Counted from the stretch's first letter, positions 122 to 46,982 are shown. The stretch is DNA of 64,000 nt from Octopus vulgaris (GCA_951406725.2 OX597819.1:104408001-104472000); one strand, 5' to 3'. A program made the numbers and translations. Notes: a model not told the origin generated them from the sequence alone.

Positions 122-1387
122 GCTGACATCAATATTATTAAATAAATCTTCATTATTATTATGATGATCATTTTTTCTTCTTGACCTTTCTTTCTTTCTT
201 TCTTTCTTTCTTGTTCTTGCACAACGTCTTCCTCACCCTATCTCTACTTTTCCCCTTTTTCTCCACTTCCCGCCCCTTCTTCTCCACGTCTTCTTCCCAT
301 TATTATCATAATTGCGATCATCATATTCACTCCTCTCCCTTCTCCCAAACATTCACTCTCCTACCATTATGTTACAGCAATAAACTAATTATATACATAA
401 TTTGTGGAACAATTAACAACAAACAACAACTGTAAACAAATATTAAACAATAACAATAAACAATAACAACCAAGTTGAAGAGAAATACATAATTAACATC
501 AAAAATACATAATTAAAAACTGCTAAAATATAATCTCATGATTGCAGACTAATTAATTAATAATTAAACACAACCGCAGACATCATAATTGCGATTATAA
601 TTATGTTTTCCGCCTTTGATTATTATAATTTTTTGATATTGTTTTATTGATGCTGTTGTAATTGTTGTTGTTGTTATGCTTCTTTTTTATTGTGTGTTGC
701 TGTAGATTAAGCTTTTGTTGTATTGATGTTGTTGAGTTAAGCTCTTCTTGTTGCTGTTGTTAATATTATTGATGTCTGTTGTAGTTGTTAATGTTGTTTC
801 TGATGTTGATATTTTTTCATGGTGTTCGTATTGATGTTTATAATGTTGACATAGATGTTGGTGTGTTCTTGTGTTATTGGATGTTTTGTTTTTTAATATT
901 ATTTTGATGTGGATGTTGTTGATGTTTTTTAATATTATTTTGATGTGGATCTTCTTGAAGTTGTTTTGTTAATGCTGCTCTCACTATTAGCGTTGATGTT
1001 GATTTGTGATGTTGTTGCTGTTATCCTTATTGTTGGTATGTTCTTGTGTCCTTGAGTTGTTGATATCATACTGTGTTGCTATTGTTGTTGATGATGGTAT
1101 TGTGCACATTTTTGTTTGTTGTTGATATTATAGTTGTTGTGCTCTTGTATTATTATTATTGTCTTTGTGTTGTGTTTTGTATTGTGTTGCTCATTTTGAC
1201 GTTACATTGTTTTATCTCATTAAGTGTTTGCTGTGTCTATGTTGTATTATGGTGCATTTTTTGTTAGCCGCATATATTATTATTATCATTCAGTAGTTTT
1301 ATTTTTATAGCGTGCTTTCACTTCACTGCCGAGCGCAGCTCTGTGTGCCTTGGGTATGTGCTGTGATTTGTTGTGATGCTCTGATGG

Positions 1388-2430
1388 TTATTGTATGGAA
1401 AGTCTTCTGCGTAGGATATGTGCAGTGCCTAGTAGTGCAATTTTCTGTATGTTATATGTGTTTGTAAGTCCTGGTGTTTTTGTTATGTATTTGTCTGAAT
1501 ATTTTTTATCATGCCTAATGCAACTACTATGATAGGAATTGTTTCTGTTTTTAGATTCCACATTCTGGTTACCTCTATTTCCAGGTCTTTATATTTTGAA
1601 AGTTTCTCCATTTCTTTTAGAGGCACGTTGTCATCTGCCGGTATAGATACATCAATTAGAAAGCATTTTTTTCTTCATGATCTCTGACAACTATATCTGG
1701 TCTGTTGGCCTTAATTTCTCTATCTGTGTGTATCGGAATATCCCAGAGTATGGTTGCTTTCTCGTTTTCTGTGACCTTTTCTGGTGTGTGCCTATACCTT
1801 CTTTTTTCTGTTGTTATTCCATAATGTTGGCATAGCTTCCAGTGTATGTAGGTTCCAACTCTGTCATGTCTGTGAATATATTCCTTCTTAGCCAGGACTG
1901 GGCAGCCAAAGATAATATGATTTATTGTTTCTTGTCCATCTCCACATATTCTGCAGTTACTTGTTATATTTCTTTTCATTACATGTTTTTGGTAATTTCT
2001 GGTGGGTAGGCTTTGGTCTTGTGCTGCAATTAAGAATCCCTCTGTCTCTGCTTTGAGTCCTGAGCCTCTCAACCATTGCTGGGATTTTTCTTTGTCTATT
2101 TCTTTTGCATTTAGTTTGGTCCAGTATTTACCATGAAGGGGCTTTTCTTGCCATCGTTTTATCATGGTTCTTTGCTGTTCTAGTTTTAGTTTGGATTTCA
2201 TTTGTTTTATAGCTTTTGTTGTTTCTTCTTCTTCTTCTTCTTCTTCTTCTTCTTCTTCTTCTTCTTCTTCTTCTTCTTCTTCTTCTTCTTCTTCTTCTTC
2301 TTCTTCTTCTTCATATTTATTAGGTGGTATGATTTCTTGTTTGTATTTGTCAGCATCCTTAAATACTGAGAACAGTTTTTTGTTTTGCTCGTGTTTTGCC
2401 GCTATTTGTATCAGTTTTCCTTCCTTCTGA
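1388..2430 (-). pseudogene. Family A linker (poly-Glu), CCHC zinc finger and restriction-like endonuclease
   Basis: LKAETEGFLIAAQDQ, CRICG, RHD, RPD motifs; one-base frameshift in the T-run near 1666. Confidence 0.88.
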
Positions 2431-2664
2431 AGTAGATATTTTTACAGTCCTATGGTGGTTATTTTATAGTAGTTTTCCAGCTGTATAAGGCCTCTACCAC
2501 CTTCTATACGTTGTATATATAGTCTTTCTATGTCAGATTTTGGGTGATGCATCCTAGATCCTGTCATTATTTTTCTTGTTTTCCTATCTATTTTGGTCAG
2601 TTCATTTAGTTAAGGATATTGTAGCTGTAACTTATAACTGGGACAGCTAAAGTGTTAATACCTA

Positions 2665-3824
2665 TTATCTTGTTTTTAGCATTGAACTCTGTTTTTTGTA
2701 TTGATCTAACTCGTCTATAATATTCTTTTTTATTTTCTCTTTCATTTGTGTGTGTTGTGTCTTATCTAGTTCATGGATTCCTAAGTATTTGTAAGTTTGG
2801 CTTTGGTCTAATTCTTTTATTTCATTGGTTTTATTTAGTGTGATGTTGCTACTCTTAACTAGTTTTCTTCTTTTCAGGGTTACTTTGGCGCATTTTTCTA
2901 ATCCAAATTTCATATCTATTTCTTTGGTAAATCCATGAACTGTCTTTAATAGTGTTTCCAGCTGTTTGTCATTTGCAGCGTATAGTTTTAGGTCATCCAT
3001 ATATAAAAGGTGGCTGATCGTTTTGCCGTAACATTTATATCCGCATCCAGTTCTATTTAGCATATCAGATAGAGGTGACAGTGCCAAGCAGAAAAGGAGT
3101 GGAGAGAGCGTATCTCCCTGGAATATTCCTCTTCTAATGGGGATGTCTTTGGTTTTCATGAGTCCCTCTTTTGTTTGGAGCTGTAGCACTGTTTGCCATT
3201 TATTCATAGAGTGTCCTATGAATTTTATAATTGTTGGTGCTACTTTGTTAATGGCTAGTGTTTCGAGGATCCATGTGTGGGGGTGCTATCAAACGCCTTT
3301 CTGTAGTCAATCCAGGCCATACTGAGGCTTTTCTTCTTTCTGTGGCTGTCTTCAGTTATGACTTTTTTAATCATTTGTTGATCTTTACAGCCATATGAGC
3401 CTTTGCGGCATCCTTTCTGCTCTTCTGGAAACAGGTTGTTTTCGTTCAGGTGCTTGTTCAACCTTTGCGATATCACTGCAGTAAATGCCTTGTACATTGT
3501 AGGGAGACAGGTTATTGGTCTGTAGTTTTCTGGTTTTGCTGTCTCATTTGATATGGGAATTAAGATGGTTTTCCCCTTCGTGAGCCATTCAGGCATTGTC
3601 TCTGGCTCTGCTAGTATGTTTTTAAAGTTTTCAGCCAGCTTTTTGTACATTCCAGTTAGATATTTCAACCAAAAGTTGGGGATCTTGTCATGCCCAGGTG
3701 CCTTCCAGTTGCTTAGTCTTTGCAGTGCCTGGGTGACCTCTTCAGTTGTTATGGGGGTCCATAACAATGCTGAGTTTGTTGTTTTAATACTCCTTTTTTT
3801 TTTGGTTGTTCGTTCGCCGACCAT
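2665..3824 (-). pseudogene. Family A reverse transcriptase (frameshifted)
   Basis: ORFs 3255-3824 and 2665-3207 carry the RT motifs, including YMDDLKLY. Confidence 0.92.
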
Positions 3825-4372
3825 ATTTCTCTCCAGAATTCTTCCACTTCTTCTGCCGTTGGTGCTGCAGTGATTTCTATTTTATTTTGCCAAGTTCTTG
3901 GTAGAACTTTTGGGGTTGGAGTTGAACTTTTTGTTTTGTTCAAAGAAGCGCTGGCGTTTCTCGTACCGCGGATCCTTTGTGCTTTGGCAAGGATATCTTG
4001 CTTCAGCTTTTCTTTTATCTCAGGTAAATCCTTTTCTGTGATGTATTTGCGGAGTATTTTTGTTTTCTTTTTGTTGCTCAGTAGCGTTGATTGTCTACTG
4101 ATTTCATTAAGAATCGACAGATCTTTTCTCATTTTTTGTGTTTTGCTTTGGTTGTTATTTATCCACAGGGTTTGTTTGGGTGGTGGTACTCCTGTTTGGA
4201 TAGGTTTGAGTGAGTATCCAGCTTCTTTTGTGGCTGCAGTGGCTGCTGCGTATACTAAGTCATTTAGCTCAGTGATATCGCTTTTTGTTTCAGTGGCTAT
4301 TAGTTCCGTGACGGCTAGGTTTATGCTGTTTATAATTGGTGTTGTTGTTTCGTCTATTTTGATTTTTGGGAG

Positions 4373-5209
4373 CTATGGTCGGTGGTCCATTTTGAGCTCT
4401 GTGGTTTTTAGTTCTTTGATTATTCTACTTTTTATATTATCATAATCATTAGGCTCCCCTTCGTTGTTTCCAGGTTTTAGATTTGTGTCGCTTTCGTTCT
4501 CATTTTTATGTTTGTTTGTCGTGTTTTGGCTTGCTGTTTGTCGTGTATTATTATGCATTCTTACGGTCTGGGTTTGTTGTTTTTTGTTTACATCGTGTTT
4601 GTTGGGAATGTTACGTTTGTCTTCGTGTTTTACTGTTTCAGTGTTTATATTGTTGGGCATTGTTGTGTGGCTTCTATCTACATTTTCCTGATATATTTTT
4701 TCTTTTAGATGTTCTATTTCTATTTCTGATATTTTTTTTGCTTTGAGAATGTATCTTCGTATGTTAGCTGGTTTATTAGGGTTCATTGCTGTATCCAAGT
4801 CTATATTTATGTTATTTTCCTTCCATATTTTATATGTATGTGTTGTTGTGTTTTCATTTTTTTGGTAGAGCACTGCTGTGAAGTAAGCGTGTAGAATAGA
4901 AATGTATTCCTCACGTGTCCATTTATGTCTTTTGAGTTTTATTTGCGGGACATTAGGAACAACGTCCGGCCCATTATTTTGACGGTCGTCATTTTCGTAG
5001 GGTACCGGTCCGTTCATTTCTGTTGTCACATTGTTTTGCACGTGTAGTTTTTCGTACATTTTGTGTTGTAAGTTTAAAGTGCGTACTTCCCGATTGTTAT
5101 TCTTGGGTTGAATAATATCGGTGTTGTTTAATTTCTTCGTAGTTTTTTTGTACATGGTGTTTGGGGTCGGGGATGATCTGGTGTTGATGGATCGTAATGT
5201 ACCACGCAT
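4373..5209 (-). pseudogene. Family A N-terminal region (Myb-like KWTREE motif)
   Basis: 278-aa ORF; KRHKWTREEYISILHAYF resembles family B KEKWTREDNKEVLAAFY. Confidence 0.75.
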
Positions 5210-5428
5210 GTTTACATGTGTTGTGTTAGAGGTGGAGATGATATCGAGTTAAAATACATCATTTCGTTTCGAAAATAGTAATAAATTTCAATGAGAATTA
5301 CTTACTCGGATATAGTCCAATCCTTTGTTAGTAAATTTTTGGCTCCATACGATGTCTTTGTTTTCGATGTTTGTGGATAGAATTCGGGGCTCTGTTTTAT
5401 CGTTCTCACATCTTAAACGTCCCCGGTG

Positions 5429-24965: not shown

Positions 24966-25280
24966 TTGTGTGTGTATATGTGCGAATCATTCTCTGTCTC
25001 TGTATGCATTTATACATTACACTATATATCATGTATATGCATGTTTATATATATATATACATGTAAAATATATATATACACATATAAAATATATGTATAT
25101 ATTCATATGTATATATATATATAATATATATAGGTATGAATATATGCATATATGCATATATGTATGTATATATTACGTATGTCTGTCTGTGTGCGTGTAT
25201 GTATATTTGTATATATGCATCTATCTATCTATCTATCTATCTACCTATTTATTTATCAATCTATCTATCTATCTATCCAT

Positions 25281-25327
<47 letters not shown>

Positions 25328-25361
25328 TGTTGGCATCCTTTTTGTCTCGGGAGACAATGGA

Positions 25362-25414
<53 letters not shown>

Positions 25415-28015: not shown

Positions 28016-28034
28016 GAAAAATGGCGGTAACACC

Positions 28035-28220
28035 TGCTTACTGCCAAGAAAAAGCTGGAGATGTCACAGACTAAGCATATATCTGTCTTTACATTCTGAG
28101 TTCAAACGCCGCCAAGGTTAACTTTACCGTCCATTTTTCCGGGGTTGATAAAATAAGTGCCACTTGAACACTGGCATCGATGTAAACAATTTACCCCCTC
28201 TTCCGAAATTGCTGGCTTTG
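28035..28220 (+). mobile_element. Meta-core SINE (diverged) followed by (TTA)n
   Basis: ctgagttcaaacgccgcc..ggggttgataaaataagtgcc. Confidence 0.7.
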
Positions 28221-28243
28221 TTATTATTATTATTATTATTATT

Positions 28244-28798
28244 GAGTGAGAGAGCAGTGCATGTCATCAAAGTGACACTGGGGTAAAATATACGAAGCCC
28301 AGTATACCCATCATGGCTACCTGTCTGATAAGGGTACACTAGGCACATGCATCACAACCATAAGTACACGACATGGTGATCTCATATCAAGATAAACAGC
28401 GCATGAACCTGCAGGTGGAGCCCAGTTAGAATTTTCTTCTGGTCGAGTAGCCCATCCCGCTCAAAAGGGCCATGAATAAGGGTTGTTTAAGGATGTTGAA
28501 CGAAACACACATATTTCCAGAGGTGAATTATTCAAATTCCAAAGAATCCCTCTCAACACATGGCTATGATACTCCCCTACTACTTCTGCTTGTGATTAGA
28601 GATGCACATATCGTCAGCCACTAAGATAAATGCTCAACTGATTAAGGTCAAACAACTGACAAGCAAATCTGTAGTATTGAGCAGAATATTTGCTGTAGCC
28701 CATCTTTTATACCAAGATAAAACAACGTACGTGATAACACTTCCAATCAGTTAAGATCAGAAGCCATGAGAGCCACTGCCTGGTACTACATCAGGGCA

Positions 28799-28800
<2 letters not shown>
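28244..28800 (-). mobile_element. ~557-bp non-coding TAA-associated element, copy 2 (full length)
   Basis: (TTA)n on both sides; 5' end aatgccctgatg matches the start of copy 4. Confidence 0.88.
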
Positions 28801-28868
<68 letters not shown>

Positions 28869-28871
<3 letters not shown>

Positions 28872-29273
28872 TAGTTTTATTTTTATAGCGTGCTTTCACT
28901 TCACTACCGAGCGCAGCTCTGTGTGCCTTGGGTATGTGCTGTGATTTGTTGTGATGCTCTGATGGTTATTGTATGGAAAGTGTTCTGCGTAGGATGTGTG
29001 CAGTGCCTAGTAGTGCAATTTTCTGTATGTTATATGTGTTTGTAAGTCCTGGTGTTTTTGTTATGTATTTGTCTGAATATTTTTTTATCATGCCTAATGC
29101 ACCTACTATGATAGGAATTGTTTCTGTTTTCAGGTTCCACATTCTAGTTATCTCTATTTCCAGGTCTTTGTATTTTGAGAGTTTCTCCATTTCTTTTAGA
29201 GACACGTTGTCATCTGCCGGTATTGATACATCAATTAGAAAGCATTTTTTTTCTTCATGATCTCTGACAACTA

Positions 29274-29276
<3 letters not shown>
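28869..29276 (-). mobile_element. Dong-like family A, 5'-truncated copy
   Basis: Near-identical to 1291-1696; intact RLE C-terminus (ORF 28966-29205); (TTA)n on both sides. Confidence 0.92.
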
Positions 29277-29330
<54 letters not shown>

Positions 29331-29351
29331 TATTATTATTATTATTATTAA

Positions 29352-29387
<36 letters not shown>

Positions 29388-29388
<1 letters not shown>

Positions 29389-30027
29389 TTAATTTTGTTT
29401 CCATTTCTTGCCGAGTGTCTTCCCAACATCCAGGGCACAGAAACTCATTTTACACATTGATAGCCCATTAAAATAAACACACCAGATTGTTCTTGCACAA
29501 AATCATGTTATGTGACAGAAAAAAAATATAGAAAGGCAATGCGCTTCTCAATACGTGTTAGTTGGAACAATCTTCCGCGCTAATTACATGGATACTAAGC
29601 TAGGGGTCATTCTCAAATAAATTTCAGTTCCTTTTTTGATCATTCCAACTACTCCTGAAATTACTGGTACTGTACCGTTTTTAGATGCCACATCTTTCGA
29701 TTTCAATCAGCAAATCTTTATATTTTCTGAGCTTATCGAATTCTTTCGCCTCGATATTATGATTACAAGACTCATATCAACCAATAAACACACTTTATTG
29801 TTTTTGTCTTTCACAACAAAATCAGCTTTATTAGTTTTGATGGTTCGGTCTGTATGTACTGGAAAGTCCTTAAGAATCGTTACATTTTCTCCCCCAGTTA
29901 TAACCCCAGGGTGGTGCTTATACTATTCGACTCCAGTTTTGATTTTATAATGCCGACATATTAACCAGTGTAGATATTGACCAACTCTGTCGTATCTTTA
30001 GGTTTATAATCTGTAGGTGCTAAAACT
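29388..30027 (-). mobile_element. Dong-like family C, 5'-truncated and degraded
   Basis: VLAPTDYK, GQYLHWLICRHYKI, FPVHTDRTIKTNK, KLRKYKDL motifs. Confidence 0.75.
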
Positions 30028-30052
30028 TTATTATTACTGCTGGAGTTTTGAA

Positions 30053-30123
<71 letters not shown>

Positions 30124-30300
30124 ATGTTTGACTTTTGCTTTATATTTGTACAAGTTGGCTCCAAGTCTCACCCAGAGACCTCAAGAGACAACAGGCTGGA
30201 AGTTCACGTTGTTGTTATGCCTAGTGTGCCATATATTTGGTAGTTTTTTGTGTTGTACTAGTGGATGTCTAAAAAAAAAGGTTTGTTTTAAACCTTGAGA

Positions 30301-31113
30301 TTACATAGAAAGTATTTTGCGTAGGATATGAGTAGTTTCCATGAGCACTATCTTTTGAATTTCTGCAATTTTTGGGTTTCCTGGTATCTGAGTTAGGTAG
30401 CAATCAGCCCCTTTTGCTATCATTCCCAGGGCACCTATGACAACAGGTATTGTTTTAGTCTTCAGGTTGCACATTTTTCTGATCTCTATTTCAAGATCTT
30501 TATATTTGCTCAGTTTTTGGTAGGTCTTGACAGATACGTTTATATCGATTGGGACAGTCATATCAATGAGGAGGCATGTTCTTTGTTTGAAGTCTTTCAA
30601 TATGATGTCTGGCCTATTTGCATCTATCTTTCTGTCAGTTTGAATGGTGAAGTTCCAGAGGAGTGAGATATGGTCATTTTCAAGCACTGGGGGTGGTTTG
30701 TGTTCCCACCAGTTTTTTTCATGGGGCAAATCCAGGTTTTTGCAGATTACCCAGTGAATATATTGTGCAGCTCTATTATGCCTGTTGATATACTCTGTAG
30801 GCGCTAGAAGACTGCACTTGGAGGCCACATGATCAATGGTTTCATTTTGTTGCTGGCATACACGACACGTTGGGCTACTGCCGATCTTTAATATGTTGGC
30901 CTGGTAGTTTCTTGTTGGTGGGCATTGATCTTGAGCTCCTATGATAAACCCTTCTGTTTCAGATTTTAAGCCAGAGGCCATTAGCCATTGATGGGTCAGG
31001 GCTTTGTCAACATCTGCACTATTCGCTCTCTTTGGGTATTTGCCATAGAGAGGTTTTTCTTGCCATTTATCATTCAGAATATCTAAGGCCGCAGATTTAG
31101 CATGGGTTTTCAT
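30301..31113 (-). pseudogene. Family B zinc finger and RLE endonuclease
   Basis: 270 aa: LKSETEGFI, CRVC..ETIDHV..C, RPDIILKD, LIDMTVP. Confidence 0.9.
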
Positions 31114-31211
31114 GCGCTTAGCTTTTTCTGTGCCTGTTTCTTGTATGTCTATCTCTAATTCCGAAATTTGTTGTATTCGGAATTCACTGAGATATCCCTT
31201 TGCCTGTTTTG

Positions 31212-32595
31212 TTACTGAGTATGATGTTTCTTGTTTTCATGTTTTGAGTCAAGTTTTAACATCCAGTCCTCAGAGTTTTTCAGGTAGGTGTCTAGGCCAA
31301 TTGTAGCAATCTTCATTGTTATTGCCAGTTGTAAAAGTCCACGGCCTCCGTCTTTTCTTGGCAGATAAAGTCGTTCTGTATCTGCCTTAGGGTGGTGCTT
31401 TCTATGCATTGTCAACAGTTTTCGTATTTTTCTGTCAAGATTACATATTTCAGTAATTGACCAGTTAACGATATTGAAACTGTAAGTCACGACTGGTATG
31501 GCTAATGGATTGATCGCTTCGATCCTGTTTCTCGCATTCAGCTCTGTCTTGAGTATTGCTCTTACTCTGCGATGACATTCTCTCCTGATCCTTTCCTTGA
31601 TCTCTGGATGCTTGTAGTTCTCCGCTGGGTCTAATTCTTTTATGACATTCTGCTGGTCAAGGTTAACGTTAGATGTTTCTGTCATTTTTCCTTTGATAAA
31701 GGTAGCTTTTGCACACTTATCGAGGCCAAATTGCATTCTGATGTCATCACTAAATTGTTTGACAATCGCTAGTAAGCCCTTGAGTTGTTGGTCATTTTTT
31801 TGCAAAGAGCTTTAAATCATCCATGTAAATGAGATCATTTATATTTTTATCAAACATTTTATATCCGTACTGCGCGTCATTGAGCAGTTTTGATAGAGGT
31901 ATTAAGGCTAAACAGAAGAGGAGTGGTGATAGTGAGTCACCCTGGAAAATGCCACATGAAATTTTTACATCACCAGCATTTAGAGATTCATTGTCACTGT
32001 TCAAAGTTAGTGTGGTTCTCCATGATCTCATACTTACAGACAAAAAGTTTCGCAGAGTAGGTGCTATCTTATACATTTCTAGGCATTTCTTAATCCAGCT
32101 ATGTGGTAGGCTATCAAAAGCCTTTTTATAGTCTATCCAGGCTATTGATAAGTTTTGTGTTGTTTGTGACAATCTTCTAAGATCATCTTATTGATGAGTA
32201 GTTGATCTTTACAACCGTAGGATCCACGTTTACATCTTTTCTGTTCATTAGGGAATATGCTGCTGTCTGTCAAAAAACTATAGGTATATTCCGTCAGGAC
32301 AGATGTTAGTGTTTTATACATAGTTGTTAAGCAGGTTATGGGTCTATAGTTTTTTTGGTTCATTTGTTTCTTCACGTTTTGGAAGCAGGAATGTTAACCC
32401 ATTAACTAGCCAAGGAGGCATCCTACTAGGGTGTTGCAAAACATCATTGTAAAGTTCTGTTAGCAGTTCATGGCTCTCTGGGAAGGCATTCAACCATTTG
32501 CTTGACCTCCTGAGAGCAGATCTTATATCTTCTACCTTGACACCCTCCCACTTTTGCTCTTCTAAGGAGTCCAGTGTGTTTTTTCTTCTGCCCAA
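31212..32595 (-). pseudogene. Family B reverse transcriptase (frameshifts and internal deletions)
   Basis: ORFs 32344-32595, 32142-32375, 31792-32172 and 31212-31805. Confidence 0.9.
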
Positions 32596-34013
32596 ATTTT
32601 ATTCCAAAATCCCTGCACTTCTTCTTTTGATGATACAGACTTTACAGTAACGGGTGTTTTTCCTATCTTCCTGTAAACATTTTTGGGGTTATTTTTGAAC
32701 ATGTTGTTGTCCCTGAAGAATCTAATACGCCTTTTATACCTCGCTATGCGGGCAGCTTTAGCAGATACCTTTTGCTTGCTGGTTTCTATGGTGGCATCAA
32801 TATCAAGTATAGTTTTCATATTATATTTTTTCATTAGTTTTTGGGGTTTTGTAGGTTTGGTAGTCTTATGAACCTTAAGGTTTTTCAAATATTCAATGTC
32901 AGATCTAAATAGTTTAATTTGTTGTTGCAAACACTCTTGCCAAGAAGGCTTTTTGTGGAAATGTTGCCGTTTTCTAATCTTTTCACCACTTAGGATCGTT
33001 GAGATTTTCGCGGATGCATAGTATAGGTGGTTAAGATCTGTGATATCAACATCATTAGCTGAAATTATATCCTTAAGTGCAAGCCGGATTTTACCAATTA
33101 TTTTCATGTTTTGGTTAGAGTTGCGGATTTTAGGGAGTGTATCACGTTCATCCATACTGGTTTCTTTAATTTTCAGCCATTCAATCATGATTTGACTTTT
33201 TAGCTCATGTAGTTCTGTCGGGTCAATATTTGTGTGACTTTCTTCATCTATTTGATGTTCATCTGTCTTAGTGTTTATGTTTGGTTCAGGGAGTATTTCA
33301 CTTTGCCTATCACTTATACTAACTCTTTCAATCCTTACTTCATTTTTATCAGCTCTGGGCTGGTCTATAATTATTTCTTCTGTATTATCTTCTTCAGCTG
33401 CAGCTTCGTTCATTCTATCCGTTACTGCTTGTCTAATTTGGTCAATCTCTACTTCAGTCAGTAATTTGTTTTTTATAATGTTTCTTCTGACGTTGGCAAG
33501 TTTGTTACTGTCTATGTAGGGTCCTGCTTCAGGGTGTTTCTGTCTCCAGTTTATGTAGGTTTGTATAGTGTTCGATTTATCTGTGGGGAAATATATGGCA
33601 TGGTAGAAGGCCGCAAGAACTTCTTTATTATCTTCCCTAGTCCATTTTTCCTTCTTTTTCTTTTGAGTGTTTGGTGACGAGCATGGATGGCCATCTGTTG
33701 GAATATTCCAGTTGTGGGGTACGTCCAGCTCCTGTGTGTCGGGAAGATTTGATCCAGTAGCTAATTTTTCAATCAGAATTTGGTTCAATTTTCGGGTACG
33801 TGGTCTTTTGTAATCCACTCGCCGACCATCGCGGTTTGTAGTTTGTTTTGTTGACATTGAAGCATGACGAGCTTCGACTCTTACATTAAGAGACGGATCT
33901 GTCAGTTTAGGATTCTCTGCACGTAAACATTGTTCGTAGCGCGGCATCTTAAGGCTAGCAGATCTGTATTCGTCTGTATTTTTTTTTTTGTTGATAGATT
34001 TATCTCCGGGCAT
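32562..34013 (-). pseudogene. Family B N-terminal part
   Basis: 483-aa ORF collinear with the downstream RT pieces. Confidence 0.8.
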
Positions 34014-35395
34014 AGTTTTCCCTTTTTTTAACTTATGAAAGGTTCACTCTGCCTGTATTAGTTCGAAAAAATGAGAATAAAATACGAAAAAAAAAAAATT
34101 ATCATCACCACTATCATCACCGTCATCATCATCATCAATGATATTGTTTTATGTGTAGTCACAGCAGTAGCTTATTATTATTATTATTATTATTATCATT
34201 ATCACCATCGCCACGGTAAAGAGGTCATGTTCTATAGGTCTATAAATAGATTCAGCAGATGGTGGGATGGTCAGCCAAATAGGCAAAGAACATTTTGGGT
34301 CAGGAAAGGTCAAACCTGTTTACTAGTACCAGCGTTATCTTGAAAAGCAATTCAGCTTGTTATATTTGTAATTAATGTTAGGAAGAGAAAAAAAACCTAT
34401 ATATATATATATATATACCCATACACATATGTATATGTATATGTATATTCACACACGCATATTTTCTGATATTCACGTCGATGATTTTTTTAAATTTCTG
34501 AGTTCAATTGTGTTGTTGTAATAAAAGTTTACGTGTTTACGTGTTTGGGTAATATATTAAAGTTTTTAAGTATTCTTGAGATGTCCATTTGGAAAATACA
34601 ATAAGATTTTTGCAATGGGAAGAATGTTTACATTTTCGACTGCTCAGGAAAGAAAAGTTGTGGTTAGTGAAGTTCTAAGATTTACTAGATATGCACAGAG
34701 AGAAATGATAGTGTTCTTAGAATAGAAAGGAGGATGGTATTTACATTTTCGAATACTCAGGGGGAGAGGAAAGGATACGTTGTCGCACATTAGTTGTTGA
34801 TATAAAAGATTTTTTGTTTGTTTTTTTTTTGTATTTTAAGCTGACCGTGTGTGTGTTCGATAGCTGTAGGTATGTAAGTTTCCTAACTTATTTTATTCTG
34901 CGGGAGATTTAAAATATTTATAGGGAGTTGCAAATATTCCAGTAGGAGGAAGAGCGGGTTCACCTTGTTGGGATTTTGAATTTCTGAATTTCTTTTTCTT
35001 TTGGAATTTTTCTTTTCTTTTTTAAAGTTATGCTGTGGTTTACAGTTTTTGTAGTTGTGCAGTATATATATATTAGCAGGTGCTTACTTCCATAGTTTTT
35101 TATCGTGCATTTAATTGTGTTGTTACAATAAAAGGCAAAGAAGGGACGACAAACTGTTCACACAAAATTGGAGATATTTATGATTCTAAATTTTTTGTTA
35201 GGTGTTCGCTTGTATGTCCAAAGCTGTAGATATGTAAGTTCCTTAACTTATTTTGAGGGAAATTCAAATTACTCAAAGAAAACAGTAGATCTTCCAGTTT
35301 TTTACAGATGCTTTTTCAGTTGTCCCGCTGGGTTGGTCAGAGCAGCAACAAAACACATCCAGCTTCTATCACGTCCAGCCTTCTTCTTCTTCTTC

Positions 35396-35433
<38 letters not shown>

Positions 35434-35445
35434 GTTATTATTATT

Positions 35446-35480
<35 letters not shown>

Positions 35481-35532
35481 AATCATCATTATTATTATTA
35501 TTGACCTTGTGCCTATAGCAGAAAGGGAAGAA

Positions 35533-35756
35533 AGGTGGCGATCTGGCAGAATCGTTAGCACGCAGGACAAAGTGCTTTGCGGCATTTCGTCCGCCTTTAC
35601 GTTCTGAGTTCAATACCCGCTGGCGTCATCTTTACCTTTCATTCTTTCAGGTCGATGAATTAAGTACTAGTGAACTAGTGAAACACTGGGTATCAATGTA
35701 ATCAATTAGTTTCCTCTCACCAAATTTTCAGGTCTTGTGCCTTATATAGAAAGGAC
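35533..35756 (+). mobile_element. Meta-core SINE followed by (TTC)n
   Basis: ggtggcgatctggcagaatcgttagc head; 3' half nearly identical to 6291-6415. Confidence 0.85.
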
Positions 35757-35891
35757 TCTTCTTCTTCTTCTTCTTCTTCTTCTTCTTCTTCTTCTTCTTC
35801 TTCTTCTTCTTCTTTCTTCTTCTTCTTCTTCTTCTTCTTCTTCTTCTTCTTCTTCTTCTTCTTCTTTTTTTTTTCTTCTTCTTCTTCTTCA

Positions 35892-35987
35892 GAAATTCCG
35901 CCGAGGTTGACTTTCATCCTTTCGATGGATGTAATCCACTACCCCACCTCCCCCAAAGTTTCAGGTCATGTGTCTATAGTAGAAAGG

Positions 35988-35988
<1 letters not shown>
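35892..35988 (+). mobile_element. Internally deleted Meta-core SINE with (ATT)n tail
   Basis: aaattccgccgaggttgactttcatcc..tagtagaaaggattatt. Confidence 0.7.
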
Positions 35989-36053
<65 letters not shown>

Positions 36054-36057
36054 GTTA

Positions 36058-36109
<52 letters not shown>

Positions 36110-36110
36110 T

Positions 36111-36570
36111 GAGTGAGGGAGCAGTGCATGCCATCAAAGTGACACTGGGGTACAAATATACGAAGCCCAGTATACCCATCATGACTACTCGTCTGATAAG
36201 GGTACACCAGACACATGCATCACAACCGTATGTGCGTGACATGGTGATCTCATATCAAGATAAACAACGCATGACCTTGCAGGTGGGGCCCAGTTAGAAT
36301 TTTCTTGAGGTCGAGTATCCTATCCAGCTCAAAAGATCCCTGAATAAGGATTGTTTAAGGATGTTGAACAAACCACCTATGTTTCCAAAGGTGAATTATT
36401 CAAACCTCTAAGAATTCCTTTCAACACACGGCTATGATACTCCCCAACTACTTCTGCGTATGATCAGAGATGCACATATCGTCAGCCACTAAGGGATATG
36501 GTAAACTGTTAAGGTCAAACAACTGACAAGCAAATCTGTGGTATTGAGCAGAATATTTGCTGTAGTCATC

Positions 36571-36575
<5 letters not shown>
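36111..36575 (-). mobile_element. ~557-bp element, copy 3 (5'-truncated)
   Basis: Homology to the other copies; (TTA)n on both sides. Confidence 0.85.
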
Positions 36576-36630
<55 letters not shown>

Positions 36631-36631
<1 letters not shown>

Positions 36632-38737
36632 GCCATTTTTACTTTTAATCTGCATGTTTGTTACAGTCACTTGCTGAGACAAACCCAGCATCTTGGGGGC
36701 GAATGAAGAATAAGAGATGTTACAATATGAATGAAAGCTTGGGGACGGGAGGTAGTGAAATATCTTCATGTCATGCAACACAGACATTTAAATGGATAGG
36801 GTTTTTCTAAGGATGCGGGCAGTACTTGTCAGCACAATCTTTTGGATTTCTCTGAGGCATGGTTCTAGATGTTTCTGACATCCCTTCTTTTTTTTATCAT
36901 ACCTCGGGCACCTATAATAACAGGAACAGTTCTCGTTTTAAGATGTCACATCTTTTGTGTTTCAGTTTCCAGATCCTTATATTTACTTAGTTTGTCAAAT
37001 TCCTTTACAGATACATTTTCATCAGCGGGAACACTTACAGCTATTAGTCTACCAGTATTTTCTTCACTGTCTTTAATAATTATATCTGGTCGATTAACCT
37101 AGATCGTTCTGTCAGTGCTGACTGGAAAATGCCAGAGGATAGTGAAAGTTTTACCTTCCAGGACTGGCTCAGGATGATGTTCATACCAGCAAGCAGGAGT
37201 GTTGATTTTGCAGTGTTTACATATTCTCTAAAGCAGTGTTTACATATTCTCAGCACAGGATATCCCGAGACGAGATGGTCTATTGTTTCATCAAATGTAT
37301 CGCAGAATCAGCATTTAGGGTCAGAACCGTTTTGAAGAACGCTAATCTGGTAGTTTTTTGTGAGCAAGCTTTGGTCTTGTGCCGTCAGTATGAAATTTTC
37401 AGTCTCTGCTTTCAGTCCTGATCTTCTCAGCCACTGATGGGTTGTTGATTGATCTACATCAGCATTTTGACTTCGAAGTATATACTGTCCATGCAGAGGC
37501 TTCTGGCTCCATCGCTCCCCAATTTGCTTCTGTCCGTTCTTTTCTGCAGTCTATTTGATTCATTTTGCTTGTTCTGTGGCAGTAGTTTCGGGTTCTTCAA
37601 TTATTTCAGGATTAATTTCAAGTTCCCTTGCGAATTTGCAAGCTTCTTTGACAATCGAATGTGACTTTTTGTTTGCTCTCAAGCCGCAGCATCCAGTCCT
37701 CTGTACTAGATAAGTACTTGTTCATTGATATTGTGGAGGTCTTATAGCACAGTTTTACCTGCATCATTCATCTTCACCCATTACTTTTATGGTACGTACA
37801 GACGATTAACATCTGCTCTTAGGTGGTGCATGTTTTTAGAAGTTAGTATTTTTCTTGTCTTCCTGTTCTGGCCTTGAAACTCTGTAAGATTCCAATTAAG
37901 GAGGTTAAAACTATATTGGACTACTGGAAGTGCTAGGGTCTTAATGGCTTCGAATCGATTTTTAGAGCTGAGTTCAGTTTTAGTATGAGTCTTATTCTCT
38001 TGTAACATACTTTACTTATTTTCTCCTTCATAGTAGCATGTTGTATTCTGTTTCTTTCGTTATCTTCAGGTGTTTGTAATTTCCTTGTGGGTCAAGCTCC
38101 TTGATGGTAGTGCCGGCATCCAATTTAATGGAAGCTATTTGCCTGAGCTTACCTTTTACAAAAGTTGCTTTAGCACACTTATCAAGGACAAAGTCCATCC
38201 CGATGTCATTGCTGGATTCTTTAACAGTTGTTAGCAGCTCTACTAGCTCTTCGTCATTTCTAGCAAACGGCTTCAGATCGTCCATATAAAACAGATGGTT
38301 TATTGTCGTATTGTAAACTCTGAACCCTTACCTGGTGTTATTTAGTTCGTTTGAGAGTGGAATCAGTGCCATGCAAAAGAGTAATGGAGAGAGAATCACC
38401 TTGAAAGATGCCTCGATTGTTGTTGATGTTAGTTTGGCTCATCCCATTACTATGGTTTAGAAGGAAATGTGTGTTCCACTTGGCCATGCTACCTTGTAAG
38501 AATTTGGAGATGACAGGAGAGATCTTATGTATTTCAAGGGCCTTGAGAATCCAATTATGTGGGATGCTATGAAACGCTTTCCATCAGTTTATCCATGTCA
38601 TACTCTGTTTTTTTTTGTTCCGGCAATTCTCTACAATCGTTTTACTTATGAGTAATTGATCTTAGCACCCATAAAAAATCCTTTTACAGCTTTTTGAGCT
38701 TGCACCCAGAAGAATTCCTTTTACAGCCTTTTGAAGC

Positions 38738-38738
<1 letters not shown>
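36631..38738 (-). mobile_element. Dong-like family D, 5'-truncated (RT to RLE, degraded)
   Basis: QKGCKR, FYMDDLKPFARND, LDKCAKATF, RPDIIIKD, QKIVLTSTARILRKTLSI*. Confidence 0.85.
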
Positions 38739-38800
<62 letters not shown>

Positions 38801-38803
<3 letters not shown>

Positions 38804-39387
38804 GAAAACTTACAGCTTATTTTGCTGGGTATGATGGAAATTGTCAGCTATCCACAGCCAGCAAACTAAGGTAACACTTGTTTACTGGTCATGCTTCAAG
38901 AACCCTGCGAAGAATTCTTGCAGTTCCAAGCAATGCTGATGTTTGTAGGTGTTCTGCCTTCACACTTGCAGCGATCTTTTTCACCAACGCTGGTAGTTTA
39001 GTGCTGATACTTCCAAGTGCACAAATTACAATTGTATCACATCTACTCTCTTCATTGACCACAATCTTCGTATTTCTGACTTTATATCGTCATAATTGTT
39101 TATTTATTCTTCTTCTTTCACATTCCTCCTGTTGTCACCGGACCGGGTCATGCTATGTCGATTATCATACATATTCTTTCTTTTTTATTCATCACAACAA
39201 TGGCCAGATTCCTGATGTCTGGCCAGGTGATCGCATTAGATCATTTCATCCCACAGGATTTTGCAGTTCTCATTTTCGGTGACTCCTGGAGTTTGCTCAT
39301 ACCACGTCTTTGCTCTTTGTAGACCATGATTTCTACATAGCTCCCAATGGATCATTCTTGCCACATTGTCATGACGTCTTTTGTATC
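38801..39387 (-). mobile_element. Dong-like family E, 5'-truncated
   Basis: YKRRHDNVA, ILWD, LQTSALLGTARILRRVLEA*. Confidence 0.8.
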
Positions 39388-39803
39388 CGTGTTGTTGTTG
39401 TTGCTATTATTATCATCATCATCATCATCATCATTATTATTATTATTATTATTATTTTAATCTTCCGTCCATCTGTCTTTTGTACATTTCTGAAGAATGC
39501 CTTCTGAATTATCTGACAAATAGCGCACAAAATATAAACGACGGTGAATGTGGGGGTAGTCGTGGTGGATATGTCATTATGGTCATCTTTGAGGAAAATA
39601 GAATTAACATTTGCAACATCATTTTTTCAATGGACTCCTTTCCGTCGGTCGATATGAAGGTGTGTGGAAGTGTTGTTTGGATCATCTATATTTTTGTTGT
39701 TAATTTTCTTGTTTGCTTGTCTGTGTCATGAAATTTGTTTTATAGTTTTTGTGTTTCGAGTAATTGTTTTTTATGCCTTGTTATTCCCGTTTGATTATTA
39801 TTA

Positions 39804-43289: not shown

Positions 43290-44422
43290 ATGTTTGACTT
43301 TTGCTTTGCATCTGTACATGTTGGCTCCAAGTCTCACCCTGAGATCTCAAGAGACAATAAGTTAGAAGTTCATGTTGGTGATATGCCTAGGGTGCCATAT
43401 ATTTAGTTTTGTACATAGTATTGTTCCAGAGAATGTTTTAGAAACCATAAGAAAATTATGAGTTTGTTTTAAAATTTAAGATTACATAGTCAGTATTTTA
43501 CGTAGGATATTTTTACGTAGGATATGGCCAGTTGCCATGAGCACTATCTTTTGAATTTCTGCCGTTTTGGGGTTTCCTGGTATCTGAGCTAGGTAGGAAT
43601 CAGCCGCTTTTGTTATCATACCTAGGGCAATTATGACAACAGGTATTGTTTTAGTCTTTAGTCTCCACATTTTGCCAATTTCTATTTCATGATCTTTATA
43701 CTTGCGCAGTTTTTGGTAGATCTTGACAGATACGTTTATATCGATTGGGACACTCATATCAATGAAGAGGCATGATTTTTGCCTGAAGTCTTTCAATATA
43801 ATATATGACTTATTCGCCTCTCTCTTTCTGTCAGTTTGAATGGTGAAGTTCCAGAGGAGTGAGATGCAATCATTCTCAAGCACTGGAGGTGGTTTGTGTT
43901 CCCACCAGTTTTTATTATGGGGCAGGTCCAGGTTTTTGCAAATTACCCAGTGAATATATTGTGCTGCTCTATCGTGCCTATTGAGATACTATATAGGAGC
44001 AAGAAGACTACACTTGGATACAACATGATCAATGGTGTCATTTTGTTGTTGACATACACGACATGTTGGGCTACTGCCGTTCCTTAATATGTTGGCCTGG
44101 TAGTTTGTTGTAGGTAGGTATTGATCCTTGGCTGCTAAAATAAAGCCTTCTGTTTCTGATTTTAAGCCAGAAGACACAAACCATTGATGAGTTAGTGCTT
44201 TGTCAACATCGGCACTATTATCTCTCTTTAGGTATTAGCGATTAAGAAGGTTTTCTTGCCATTTATCAGTAAGAATATTTAAGGCAACAATTTTAGCACG
44301 TGTTTTCATACGCTTAGCTGTTTCTGTGCTTGTTTCTAGTACGTCTAATTCTGTAATTTGTTGTATTTGGAATTCTTTTGCCTGTTTTGTTACTGAGTAT
44401 GACGGCTTCTTGTCTTCATGTT
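43290..44422 (-). mobile_element. Dong-like family B-related copy, 5'-truncated
   Basis: Homologous to 30124-31243; ORFs 43482-43883 and 43989-44177; (TTA)n on both sides. Confidence 0.9.
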
Positions 44423-44429
44423 ATTATTG

Positions 44430-44502
<73 letters not shown>

Positions 44503-44523
44503 CATTATTATTATTATTATTTA

Positions 44524-44918
44524 AGGCGGCTAGCTGGCTGAAACGTTAGCATGCCGGGCGAAATACGTAGCCGTATTTCGTCTGCCGTACGTTCTGAGTT
44601 CAAATTCCGCCGAGTTCAACTTTGCCTTTCATCCTTTCGGGGTCGATTGAATAAGTACCAGTTAAGCACTGGGGTCGATATAATCGACTTAATGCCTATG
44701 TCTGTCCTTGTTTGTCCTCTCTGTGTTTAGCCCCTTCTGAGTAGTAAAGAAATAGGTATTTCGTCTACCGCTACGTTATGAGTTCAAATTCCGCTGAGGT
44801 CGACTTTGCTTTTCATCCTTTCGAGGTTGATGAATGAAGTACCAGTGACACACTAGGATCGTCGTGATCGGCTACTACCCTTCCCCAAATTTCAGGCCTT
44901 GTGCCTATAGTAGAAAGG

Positions 44919-44919
<1 letters not shown>
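44524..44919 (+). mobile_element. Dimeric Meta-core SINE with (ATT)n tail
   Basis: Full unit, restart at ggtatttcgtc (~44755), ends tagtagaaaggtttattatt. Confidence 0.85.
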
Positions 44920-44986
<67 letters not shown>

Positions 44987-45016
44987 CATTATTATTATTA
45001 TTATTATTATTACTAT

Positions 45017-45786
45017 TGTCTATGCACAGCTTCTAACGCTGGAGATGTACTACGGTGCTAGCTGCTGACTGCCAGTGAACTAAGATAACACCCCTTATTT
45101 TTCGAGCACCATCCGGAGTATTCGAGCGGTTCCAAGCGGTGCTGTTTTTTGCAAGTGCTTCATCCTTATTGCAGCCCCAATTTGTTCCGTATACTTCTCA
45201 AGATTCTTACTCACTGTTCCCAGGGCTCCAACAAGTATTGGTTCTACCACCATCTTCTTCAGCGACCACAATTGCTTAACCTCCCAAGCTAACCTGAGAT
45301 ATCTTTCGACTTTTCTTTCTTCCTTATCACATACCTTGTTGTCAGCTGGGCATGCTATATTTATGATCCAGCATAGTTTTCTTTCTTTATCAATTAACAC
45401 TATGTCTGGTTTCCTAATGTATATTTCTTAGTCGCACTCAATCATAAAATTCCATAGGATCTTTGCATTATCATTTTCGATCATGCCATGTTCGTACCAC
45501 GTTTTTGCTCTATCAAGTCCATACTTGTTGCAAAGTGTCCAATGAACAATCATTGTTATATTGTCATGACGTCTCTTATATTCTTTCTGGGCTAGTGGCG
45601 TACATTGAGTGGTAATATGCCATACGGTTTCACCATTTTGTCCACAGTTTCTGCAATTCTCCCTTTCTGATGTGTTGTCTATTCTGCATTTGATGTAACT
45701 CGTTCTTGCTCTCGGGCAACATAGGTTAGAGCCTCCGTGTGCGGTTTTAAATCACTTTTAGTCAACCATAGCAATTTTTCTCTGTC
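45017..45786 (-). mobile_element. Dong-like family F, 5' part lost
   Basis: CRNCGQNGETVWHITTQC, YKRRHDN, ILWNF, KPDIVLIDK, LGTARILRMVLEK*. Confidence 0.85.
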
Positions 45787-45787
45787 T

Positions 45788-46982
45788 TAAACATGCAACC
45801 GTATGGTTGCTGTTTGACAACGAGGAAAAAGCTCGCCAATTTGCGAGTCAGCCTTTAGAAAGCAACGAAATTCTGTTCCCCCGTTGTACTGCGGGAGGAA
45901 ATTAATAAGAACTTGGGTATATGGGTTACCCCCAGGCACCAAGGCGGATTGGATTGAAGATACCATCCGACGGGGACTGGGGGATAGCGGACCCAGGCTT
46001 TTAAATGTAAGGGTATTGCCGGCGGCCGGTTGGGGAGGGTCAAGAGCGATTTTGACCCTGTGGACCCCATCGGCCACAACAGATCTGGTTTTTCCAGATG
46101 TTTTTAAAATGGCTGGCTGCAGATATCCGGTGATACTTGAGGGACGTACCCCCAAGTGCCACTCGTGCCTGCAGCCAGGCCACATTAAAAAGAACTGCTC
46201 CCAGGACCATGGTAAGGTCCTGGAACAGTCACTGCATGCCACCTCCCCTACCCGGTCAAAGGGAGCGGTGGATGTGGTTAACCCAAAATGCATTAAAAAG
46301 GGAAAAGGTGGGCAACAATAGTTGCCCGCCGAAGGAACCTAAGGCTTCGGGAGGTGGGGGAGAGATTCCGGACAAAGTGGAAGAGCAACACTCTCCCGAA
46401 GTCAGGAAGAAAAGAAAAAAAAGAAAGAACGGGTCATCGCAGGGGGGATATGATGTGCCGTCTGCACGTCCCCAAGTTCTGTCACCCACGGAGGAAGAAA
46501 CGACCCCCACCCTTAAAGATGATGAATTAATTATCTTTTTCTACAAGGGCGGGGAGGTGGAAAAAAGTAGAACATAAAGAGACAGTAGATATGCCCTTCA
46601 CGCGAGATCCCGAATGGTCTCCGCAGATAGCTGTGGAGGTCATAAGGTTTCCCTTGTGGGAAAGGTTTAAAGGATTCGGGGAGGAGTGTCGCATATGGCC
46701 GGGTGGCCCTTATACGACTTACATGTCCTACATGAGTGATTCATGGAAAATGGCGGGATACAGGAACTCAAGCGGCATTGAAGATAATGATGAATATATC
46801 GATGAGTAAGAGGTGAAAAATCCTCGTTAGAGGGTTTGAAACCTCATCTTATTGTATTATTTGTAGTGGTCTGTAACCTCAATTGTGTGTTTAAAAAAAA
46901 AACATGTTATGTAAGAGGTTTTAGTGCCTCCTTTTTATAAGAGGTTTGAAACCTCATATTGATTTTTTAAAAAAAGAAAAAA
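45788..46982 (+). mobile_element. ORF1-only (HAL1-like) L1/Tx1-type element with zinc knuckle and A-rich tail
   Basis: CHSCLQPGHIKKNC (CX2CX4HX4C) after an RRM-like region; stop at 46809; no EN or RT; A-runs at 46893 and 46969. Confidence 0.65.
45884..46321 (+). pseudogene. Gag-like/ORF1 nucleic-acid-binding protein with CCHC knuckle (frameshifted)
   Basis: YPVILEGRTPKCHSCLQPGHIKKNC. Confidence 0.65.

What the first reader, a model, noticed from the sequence alone, without database searches (positions are those of the whole stretch)
28035..39390. Polarised head-to-tail array of several RLE families in (TTA)n landing pads
Seen order: SINE(+), TTA, 557-bp element, TTA, family A, TTA, family C, TTA, family B, ..., SINEs, TTA, 557-bp element, TTA, family D, TTA, family E. 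Every RLE copy is on the minus strand with its 3' end in AAT. Established: Dong (R4 clade) inserts into TAA repeats. Inference: each insertion leaves target repeats on both sides, so the array regenerates its own targets. This would be an interstitial analogue of telomeric SART/TRAS arrays, with at least six divergent families sharing one target in this window.
Basis: partly seen in the sequence, partly recalled or inferred. Interest (0 to 1): 0.7.

Follow-up and report, generated by a model that had tools for sequence, protein, structure and literature searches.

The report
Dong-like retrotransposons stacking in TAA repeats
Eight jumping-gene copies from five protein-coding families and one short non-coding passenger family sit head to tail, all facing one way, in runs of TAA repeats, a pattern found across this probably octopus genome, likely because each insertion lands in such a run and leaves more of it behind, which is the known habit of Dong-type elements.

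Summary
Observation confirmed. 28244-39390 holds eight co-oriented minus-strand copies (LINE families A, C, B, D, E, and a 557-nt non-coding element twice), joined by (TTA)n. Family B reaches 35380. Polarity is genome-wide: 104 of 110 fetched 3' ends and 47 of 60 visible 5' junctions abut sense-strand AAT (background 0.5-0.7%). In a random 1 Mb, neighbours within 1 kb agree 14 of 14, beyond 1 kb 6 of 10. One paralogous empty site holds (AAT)11-13 against 19+23 units when filled. Nearest-relative identities of 78-99.7% point to serial insertion. The tRNA-type SINE sits in the opposite polarity (58 of 60). A toy model with tract growth fits the clustering better than one without. The proteins are R4/Dong-like (RT, CCHC, restriction-like endonuclease, predicted Myb-like N-terminus), but no named Dong was available for a tree. 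Dong-R4 in octopus and its TAA target in molluscs are in print. The scan found the same kind of stack before in other genomes. The SART/TRAS comparison is an analogy only. Not found in my searches: the 557-nt passenger and a (CATA)n-tailed sister lineage.

The parts
28082..28220 (+). 3' part of the abundant tRNA-type SINE (A/B-box-like motifs read by eye; the name 'OK family' is recalled); its (ATT)n tail roots the first sub-array
28221..28243 (.). (TTA)7 tract between the SINE tail and the 3' end of the 557-nt element (tail to tail)
28244..28800 (-). full-length 557-nt non-coding element (S557); fixed 5' end, AAT tail; nearest relative 94%
28801..28867 (.). (TTA)22 tract
28868..29276 (-). family A RLE LINE, 5'-truncated (endonuclease end plus 3' UTR); youngest member, nearest relatives 99.3-99.7%
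29277..29387 (.). interrupted (TTA)n tract, about 35 units
29388..30053 (-). family C RLE LINE, 5'-truncated and decayed; oldest member, nearest relative 78%
30054..30122 (.). (TTA)23 tract
30124..35380 (-). family B RLE LINE, full-length but frameshifted: about 1.3 kb 5' UTR, Myb-like N-terminal domain (predicted), RT, CCHC, PD-D-K-type endonuclease; 3' part 96.7% to nearest relative
35381..35506 (.). compound (TTC)5(TTA)n(TCA)n tract at B's 5' junction, facing a SINE head; not the tail of any LINE found
35507..35988 (+). two SINE pieces, the first with a (TTC)n tail, the second with an (ATT)n tail that roots the second sub-array
35989..36108 (.). (TTA)n tract, about 40 units
36110..36572 (-). 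5'-truncated S557; nearest relative 93%
36573..36629 (.). (TTA)19 tract
36633..38737 (-). family D RLE LINE, 5'-truncated within RT, decayed; nearest relative 87%
38738..38800 (.). (TTA)21 tract
38804..39390 (-). family E RLE LINE, 5'-truncated, from a distant branch; nearest relative 88%
39391..39456 (.). compound (TTG)(TCA)(TTA) tract at the array's outer 5' junction; no library element within 450 nt beyond it
1290..5428 (-). same system outside the finding: full-length family A copy, 5' end in (TTC)7(TTA)n, followed by S557 at 5660-6157 (-)
43290..45815 (-). same system outside the finding: B subfamily copy 43290-44422 and family E2 copy 45017-45815 on either side of a plus-strand SINE dimer (44524-44917), all joined by TTA

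Best explanation
Five divergent retrotransposon families with a restriction-like endonuclease, and a 557-nt non-coding element that likely borrows their enzymes, sit head to tail in (TAA)n repeats with one fixed polarity, likely because each was inserted separately into a repeat run that earlier insertions had split and lengthened. Mechanism: the single protein likely binds the repeat through its Myb-like N-terminus, nicks the (TTA)n strand and primes reverse transcription on an RNA ending in (AAU)n (inferred from R2/Dong biology). This leaves AAT on both sides of the copy (shown) and more units than before (seen at one site). Later elements of any family sharing the target land in these tracts in the same direction (co-polarity shown; order inferred from divergence). 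The abundant SINE ends in (ATT)n and occupies the same tracts in the opposite direction (shown). It is probably moved by another enzyme, and its tails supply some seed tracts, including both roots of this array. Array size then follows from mass action with positive feedback; no host function is needed.
For: Domains: RT PF00078 E 2e-27; best PDB relatives are R2 proteins, E 1e-29, aligned through the CCHC and endonuclease; YMDD, RPDI, LIDMTVP and KLSKY motifs; a three-helix N-terminal model with invariant Trp whose best matches include Myb/SANT-type domains. Polarity: 3' ends AAT in 104 of 110, ATT in 1; 5' junctions AAT in 47 of 60, ATT in 0 (of 112 anchors, 40 were left out because the element continued upstream and 12 for short flanks); background 0.5-0.7%. 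Target rather than tail: 25 of 32 5' junctions with no RLE-system copy upstream still have AAT, 7 of them facing a SINE head. Empty site: in L047 two empty units of a 165-nt tandem repeat hold 13 and 11 units, the filled unit 19+23. Distance: same strand in 14 of 14 pairs within 1 kb and 6 of 10 beyond in the random 1 Mb (Fisher p 0.02); 116 of 124 in search loci. Serial build-up: nearest-relative identity 78, 87, 88, 93, 94, 97 and 99.7% within one array. Feedback: tracts touching a copy have a median 16.5 units against 9 (30 vs 66 tracts, p 0.014); 22 of 34 random copies have a neighbour (0.65), against 0.39 in a no-growth model and 0.61 with +30 units per insertion. SINE in opposite polarity: 7 of 8, 43 of 44 and 8 of 8.
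Against: Only one clean empty site was found among 68 and 86 arrays with both flanks in hand, and it concerns S557, not a LINE. No orthologous empty allele was seen. In the random sample the outer 5' junction had AAT in only 5 of 22, ATT in 1 and neither in 16 (old copies and imprecise BLAST ends are included), much weaker than in search loci, which are selected for young or well-kept copies. Eight opposite-strand neighbours exist in search loci: 2 are one internal inversion, 3 are weak low-complexity hits, 3 look real. The feedback model rests on 34 non-independent copies, and uneven tract accessibility would fit as well. The Myb matches are Z 5-6.7, a level the tool calls common, and Foldseek gave nothing at E<=0.001. 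S557 shares no sequence with any LINE family tested, so its carrier is unidentified. No cleavage or transposition was assayed.
Confidence: 0.85

Rival explanations
1. The repeats are only element-encoded tails; elements insert without a TAA target, and 5' tracts are tails of earlier or undetected copies.
For: 3' tails are near universal (104 of 110). 16 of 22 outer 5' junctions in the random sample have no tract. The full-length A copy at 1290 has only about 4 units at its 3' end. Tail-only insertions cannot be excluded.
Against: To have another copy's tail at its 5' junction an element must land in that tail, which is targeting. 25 of 32 junctions without an upstream copy have AAT and none has ATT. 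The L047 empty units hold AAT.
Confidence: 0.05
2. Arrays are concatemers made in single events, the reverse transcriptase jumping from one AAU-tailed RNA to the next, as R2 is reported to do.
For: In vivo template jumps are described for R2 (PMC3414825, abstract). Short 5'-end duplications occur at A and S557 copies. Five junctions join S557 to a LINE piece with no (AAT) run in the scored strand. Jumping would give co-polarity.
Against: Neighbours differ widely in age: A at 99.7% lies between S557 at 94% and C at 78%, and a recently copied old RNA would have a near-identical parent, which the searches for C, D and E did not find among the 40 scored hits each. Isolated copies also have 5' tracts.
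Confidence: 0.06
3. Copies were brought together afterwards by deletion or unequal exchange between co-oriented TAA tracts.
For: Long identical tracts are plausible recombination substrates (general knowledge), and only same-strand tracts would fuse.
Against: It does not explain AAT at 5' junctions of lone copies or the L047 site. It needs repeated loss of unique DNA; not tested directly.
Confidence: 0.04

Closest known systems
Dong (Bombyx mori) and Dong-like R4-clade LINEs; Darwinula Dong1/Dong2 (PMC7998251, passages and figure legends read; PMC3774820, passages read)
   Same: Single ORF with RT, CCHC and restriction-like endonuclease; Myb-like N-terminus without zinc fingers; (TAA)n target, stated there for most insects, molluscs and cnidarians; the Dong 5' junction there was modelled with TAA repeats upstream in element sense.
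   Different: Many deep lineages coexist and share tracts here; multi-family arrays are common; an HDV-like ribozyme, reported for Dong, was not demonstrated here; no named Dong sequence could be aligned.
Octopus Dong-R4 LINEs (PMC13282606, part 1 of 3, passages and one supplement row read: 5 recently active families, 1129 insertions, 92.7 Mb and 51 families in all; PMC9115989 and PMC8967140, passages read)
   Same: Probably the same element group: abundant, several families, some with intact ORFs and near-identical copies.
   Different: The passages I read count and date them but say nothing on target, polarity, arrays or a passenger; identity with their families was not checked because their library was not available.
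SART1/TRAS1 of Bombyx (PMC7265360, passages read)
   Same: Insertion inside a short tandem repeat that survives on both sides; two groups use one repeat in opposite directions, as the LINEs and the SINE do here.
   Different: Target (TTAGG)n at telomeres and APE-type endonuclease (the latter recalled), against dispersed (TAA)n and a restriction-like endonuclease; no chromosome-end role here.
R2 SIDEs (PMC3414825, abstract read) and Entamoeba EhSINEs (search listing and abstract starts only)
   Same: Short non-coding elements that use the target and polarity of an RLE LINE.
   Different: SIDEs are built from the 5' ribozyme and 3' end of their LINE; S557 shows no similarity to either end of A or B or to the 3' ends of C, D, E and E2 (full-length C, D, E were not in hand), and is very abundant (9217 first-look candidates).

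Membership tests
RLE-type non-LTR retrotransposons | RT followed by CCHC and a PD-(D/E)xK-type endonuclease in one ORF | tested here: met
   1275-aa frame in L062; Pfam RT, R2 structures E 1e-29 over residues 508-1248, motifs
R4/Dong clade | N-terminal Myb/SANT-like domain | tested here: inconclusive
   AF2 gives confident helices 24-39, 46-57, 67-79 and an invariant Trp; VIA matches include Zeste, GT-1, DMAP1, TRF1 at Z 5.0-5.8, top Z 6.7, below the tool's trust level; Foldseek none
R4/Dong clade | No N-terminal zinc fingers (unlike R2) | tested here: met
   No C2H2/CCHC pattern by eye in the N-termini of intact B and long A frames; no such Pfam hit for B
R4/Dong clade | RT phylogeny groups with named Dong, R4, Rex6 | tested here: inconclusive
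   Three protein searches returned no record named Dong, R4 or Rex6; the quick tree holds unnamed and insect or crustacean homologues only and has no outgroup
Dong subgroup | (TAA)n target with fixed polarity | tested here: met
   not met for family G, which ends in (ACAT)n and is not filed here
Dong subgroup | 5' HDV-like ribozyme | tested here: inconclusive
   No ribozyme family in Rfam scans; a home-made descriptor hit one B copy (12 bp of P1+P2; best of 20 shuffles 10), but the second B copy did not repeat it and A had none
SART/TRAS telomeric LINEs | (TTAGG)n target at chromosome ends | tested here: not met
   Target is (TAA)n; hits lie on many contigs and interstitially
SART/TRAS telomeric LINEs | N-terminal APE endonuclease (recalled) | tested here: not met
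   No APE Pfam hit; C-terminal RLE instead
SIDE-type non-autonomous elements (S557) | 5' and 3' ends derived from the partner LINE | tested here: inconclusive
   No blastn hit at E<1 against A, B and the parts of C, D, E, E2 in hand; dozens of other families were not available
tRNA/5S/7SL-headed SINE (S557) | Small-RNA-derived head | tested here: inconclusive
   No ARAGORN gene in the window and no fitting Rfam hit on three copies; both also miss the tRNA-type SINE, so sensitivity is low
TPRT-mobilised element (S557) | Fixed 3' end with tail, variable 5' truncation, 5'-end duplications, target polarity | tested here: met
   3' AAT in 29 of 29 and 5' AAT in 23 of 29; truncated copies and 5' duplications

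The most novel reading that the evidence does not exclude
A self-amplifying microsatellite ecosystem. Dong-like enzymes choose cargo largely by an (AAU)n tail that pairs with the nicked target, so an unrelated 557-nt RNA became a mass passenger without borrowing LINE ends. LINEs and SINEs write targets for each other on opposite strands. A sister RLE lineage does the same on (CATA)n. Together these loops would be a main source of this genome's tri- and tetranucleotide repeats.
Probability: 0.25. Interest if true: 0.62.

Novelty: new member of a known kind. Interest (0 to 1): 0.33.

Why it matters
As it stands this is a clear, large example of known Dong behaviour, with numbers attached: about a quarter of (AAT)n tracts in a random 1 Mb (30 of 115) touch such an element. 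It offers young intact ORFs with a simple repeat target, and lineages on two different repeats (TAA and probably CATA) in one genome, which makes it testable how a Myb-only RLE protein picks a microsatellite and a strand. If the 557-nt element is carried without LINE-derived ends, it would challenge the view that R2-like proteins only copy RNAs bearing their own 3' UTR. It also warns that TAA markers and repeat annotations in this group are entangled with nested insertions.

Tried and rejected
Empty alleles from other individuals or species: on 27200-28790 no contig of 4 runs bridged the left junction, and the tool cut records at the repeat. On 800-1312, one contig in each of 3 of 4 runs ran 13-14 letters into the A element's end, fewer than the 31 the tool asks for a bridge; the fourth stopped at 1190. 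At most this hints that the insertion is shared. Paralogous empty sites: 17 of 68 arrays gave hits and 7 of 86. All but L047 were rejected as self-hits, microsatellite artefacts or junctions between independent SINE copies. Named references: PMC309301 and PMC4400214 are not held; three protein searches gave no named Dong, R4 or Rex6. The careful tree did not finish; the quick tree was used and the short rows C and E are unreliable. Ribozymes: Rfam gave only AT-repeat noise; folding z-scores of five ends were -1.4, -2.3, -1.7, +0.6 and -0.2. Long-range polarity: the four LINE clusters in the window are all minus, but far pairs elsewhere are 6 of 10 and the 10 kb on each side hold no RLE copy, so I treat it as chance or unresolved. 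Three RT-only hits under 35% identity were dropped before counting, and short hits to S557 positions about 104-273, which belong to another repeat, were dropped from the pair and array counts. Family C looked fixed-length but continues upstream in 7 of 7 relatives. Literature searches showed no paper describing multi-family Dong arrays or a Dong passenger in octopus. Subscription papers (for example Kojima and Fujiwara 2004, seen only as a reference), Repbase and bioRxiv supplements could not be seen and may describe both.
Full report
Setting. The window is G000:C6:104408001-104472000 in a 2.8-Gb genome of 227 contigs; C6 is 135.6 Mb long, so the site is interstitial. I take the host to be an octopus from the recalled look of its main SINE, the genome size and earlier scan notes. 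The species was not established.

Observation. Between 28244 and 39390 lie eight minus-strand copies: S557, A, C, B, S557, D, E, with B scored as two pieces because its 5' UTR differs from the reference copy. Counted as elements that is seven insertions of six families; the count of 8, and in the plain sentence and summary, includes that split. Each 3' end runs into AAT in element sense and each 5' end is preceded by AAT or a compound tract. B is full-length to 35380. The array is two sub-arrays, each rooted tail to tail in the (ATT)n tail of a plus-strand SINE (28220 and 35988).

What the elements are. Intact relatives of B exist (frames of 1164-1334 aa in 4 of 4 fetched loci), and A has 1136-aa frames in 4 of 4 (these end just inside the endonuclease). 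B has RT (Pfam E 2e-27), and its only PDB relatives are R2 proteins, aligned through the CCHC and endonuclease. An AlphaFold model of the N-terminal region from a 73-sequence alignment gives three helices plus a long fourth with an invariant Trp; structural matches include several Myb/SANT-type domains at modest Z and Foldseek found nothing significant. This fits the R4/Dong description in PMC7998251 (passages). Pairwise identity over the C-terminal part is 18-58% between A, B, C, D, E and E2. In the quick tree B and D each group with non-octopus homologues, A sits apart and E/E2 form a long separate branch, so several old lineages coexist. No named Dong, R4 or Rex6 came back from three searches, so clade membership rests on architecture, target and the octopus literature.

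Polarity and target, genome-wide. I used two samples: 25 seeded random blocks of 40 kb and loci around the best hits of each family. In 112 anchor copies of seven families, 104 of 110 true 3' ends have AAT and 1 has ATT; 47 of 60 visible 5' junctions have AAT and none ATT. Background is 0.5-0.7%. Where no RLE-system copy lies upstream, 25 of 32 junctions still have AAT, 7 of them between the element's head and a SINE's head, where the tract is neither's tail. In the random sample 3' ends had AAT in 12 of 15 LINEs and 5 of 6 S557, but outer 5' junctions in only 5 of 22, a weaker result that includes old and poorly bounded copies. Neighbours are co-oriented in 14 of 14 pairs within 1 kb and 6 of 10 beyond, so polarity is local to the tract. 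In search loci the figure is 116 of 124; three of the eight exceptions look real.

Empty sites. One clean case: in L047 a 165-nt tandem repeat has empty units with 13 and 11 repeat units and one unit filled by S557 with 19 before and 23 after. Other candidates were rejected, and laying contigs of other runs gave no empty allele.

Build-up and feedback. Nearest-relative identities of array members are 78% (C), 87% (D), 88% (E), 93-94% (S557), 96.7% (B) and 99.7% (A). A very young A fragment sits between older S557 and C copies, which argues for serial insertion and against one template-jumping event. Clustering is strong: 10 adjacent pairs among 34 copies against 0.79 expected. Random arrays have sizes 1 (12), 2 (5), 3 (2) and 6 (1), so the window's array is at the large end but not of a different kind. 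Tracts touching a copy are longer (median 16.5 against 9 units). A simulation in which insertions pick AAT units at random gives 39% of copies with a neighbour without tract growth and 61% with +30 units per insertion; observed 22 of 34 (65%).

The two passengers. S557 has a fixed 5' end, 5'-truncated copies, 5'-end duplications, AAT on both sides and the LINEs' polarity, so it is likely moved by an RLE protein. It shows no similarity to the LINE ends in hand and no RNA family hit. The tRNA-type SINE has (ATT)n at its tail and often at its head and lies opposite to adjacent RLE-system copies in 58 of 60 cases. SINE tails account for 15 of 110 downstream neighbours, so they are one seed among several: 66 of 115 random tracts touch neither kind. 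Earlier scan notes suggest a Tx1 carrier for this SINE; I did not test that.

Comparison. Dong-R4 is annotated in Octopus vulgaris (PMC13282606: Table 1 and a supplement row) and O. bimaculoides (PMC9115989), and (TAA)n is its stated target in molluscs (PMC7998251). SART and TRAS insert into (TTAGG)n in opposite directions (PMC7265360), which the LINE/SINE pair resembles in geometry only. The scan has noted the same kind of stack in other genomes. In ten literature searches I found no description of such arrays or of S557 in octopus, with the limits given under Tried and rejected.

Verdict. Real, well supported and largely expected for Dong-type elements. Shown: anatomy, polarity, clustering, age spread, one empty site. 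Inferred: nicking strand, tail priming, feedback and the carrier of S557. Interest 0.33; the open points are S557's cargo recognition and the (CATA)n lineage.

Noticed in passing
window 57370-57750 (-); loci L224-L238: A further RLE family (G; 13-42% aa to the TAA families over 31-53 columns) ends in (ACAT)n in 12 of 15 relatives and in AAT in none; four 5' junctions lie in (ACAT)n. Likely a second microsatellite niche.
   Followed up: partly
window 2223-2312: A (TTC)30 run interrupts the family A ORF in frame (poly-Glu) where intact copies have a short Glu-rich stretch; either a local expansion or a tail-only insertion.
   Followed up: no
L003, L022, L040, L041, L053, L055 downstream of the anchors: Another repeat that often follows AAT/AAC tracts carries a hammerhead-ribozyme-like core (motif recalled, not tested); possibly Penelope-related and using the same tracts.
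   Followed up: no
L206 upstream of the A frame; L040, L043, L049, L050, L052: Tandem repeats of the first 20-30 nt of A (about 20 copies in L206) and of S557 at 5' junctions, suggesting repeated template jumps at the end of reverse transcription.
   Followed up: no
random blocks R16 (L147-L150) and R20 (L163-L166): S557 positions about 104-273 match a different repeat with no AAT flanks, so part of S557 may derive from, or have been captured by, another element. Copies limited to positions 1-234 with an AAT tail also occur (R23).
   Followed up: partly
random blocks R12 and R25: S557 pieces are fused to family E-type coding sequence without a tract, a weak hint at its carrier.
   Followed up: partly
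window 45818-46321 (+): A zinc-knuckle (PF00098, E 0.002) frame interrupts the 5' side of family E2; probably an ORF1-type piece of another retroelement.
   Followed up: no
window 34086-35380: The window's B copy has a longer 5' UTR than the intact B in L062, with what looks like an internal duplication and an internal (TTA)8.
   Followed up: partly
random blocks R18 (39074-39442) and R22 (25002-26083): RLE-like C-terminal hits of a family outside my library, one preceded by (AGT)n; possibly a third target.
   Followed up: no
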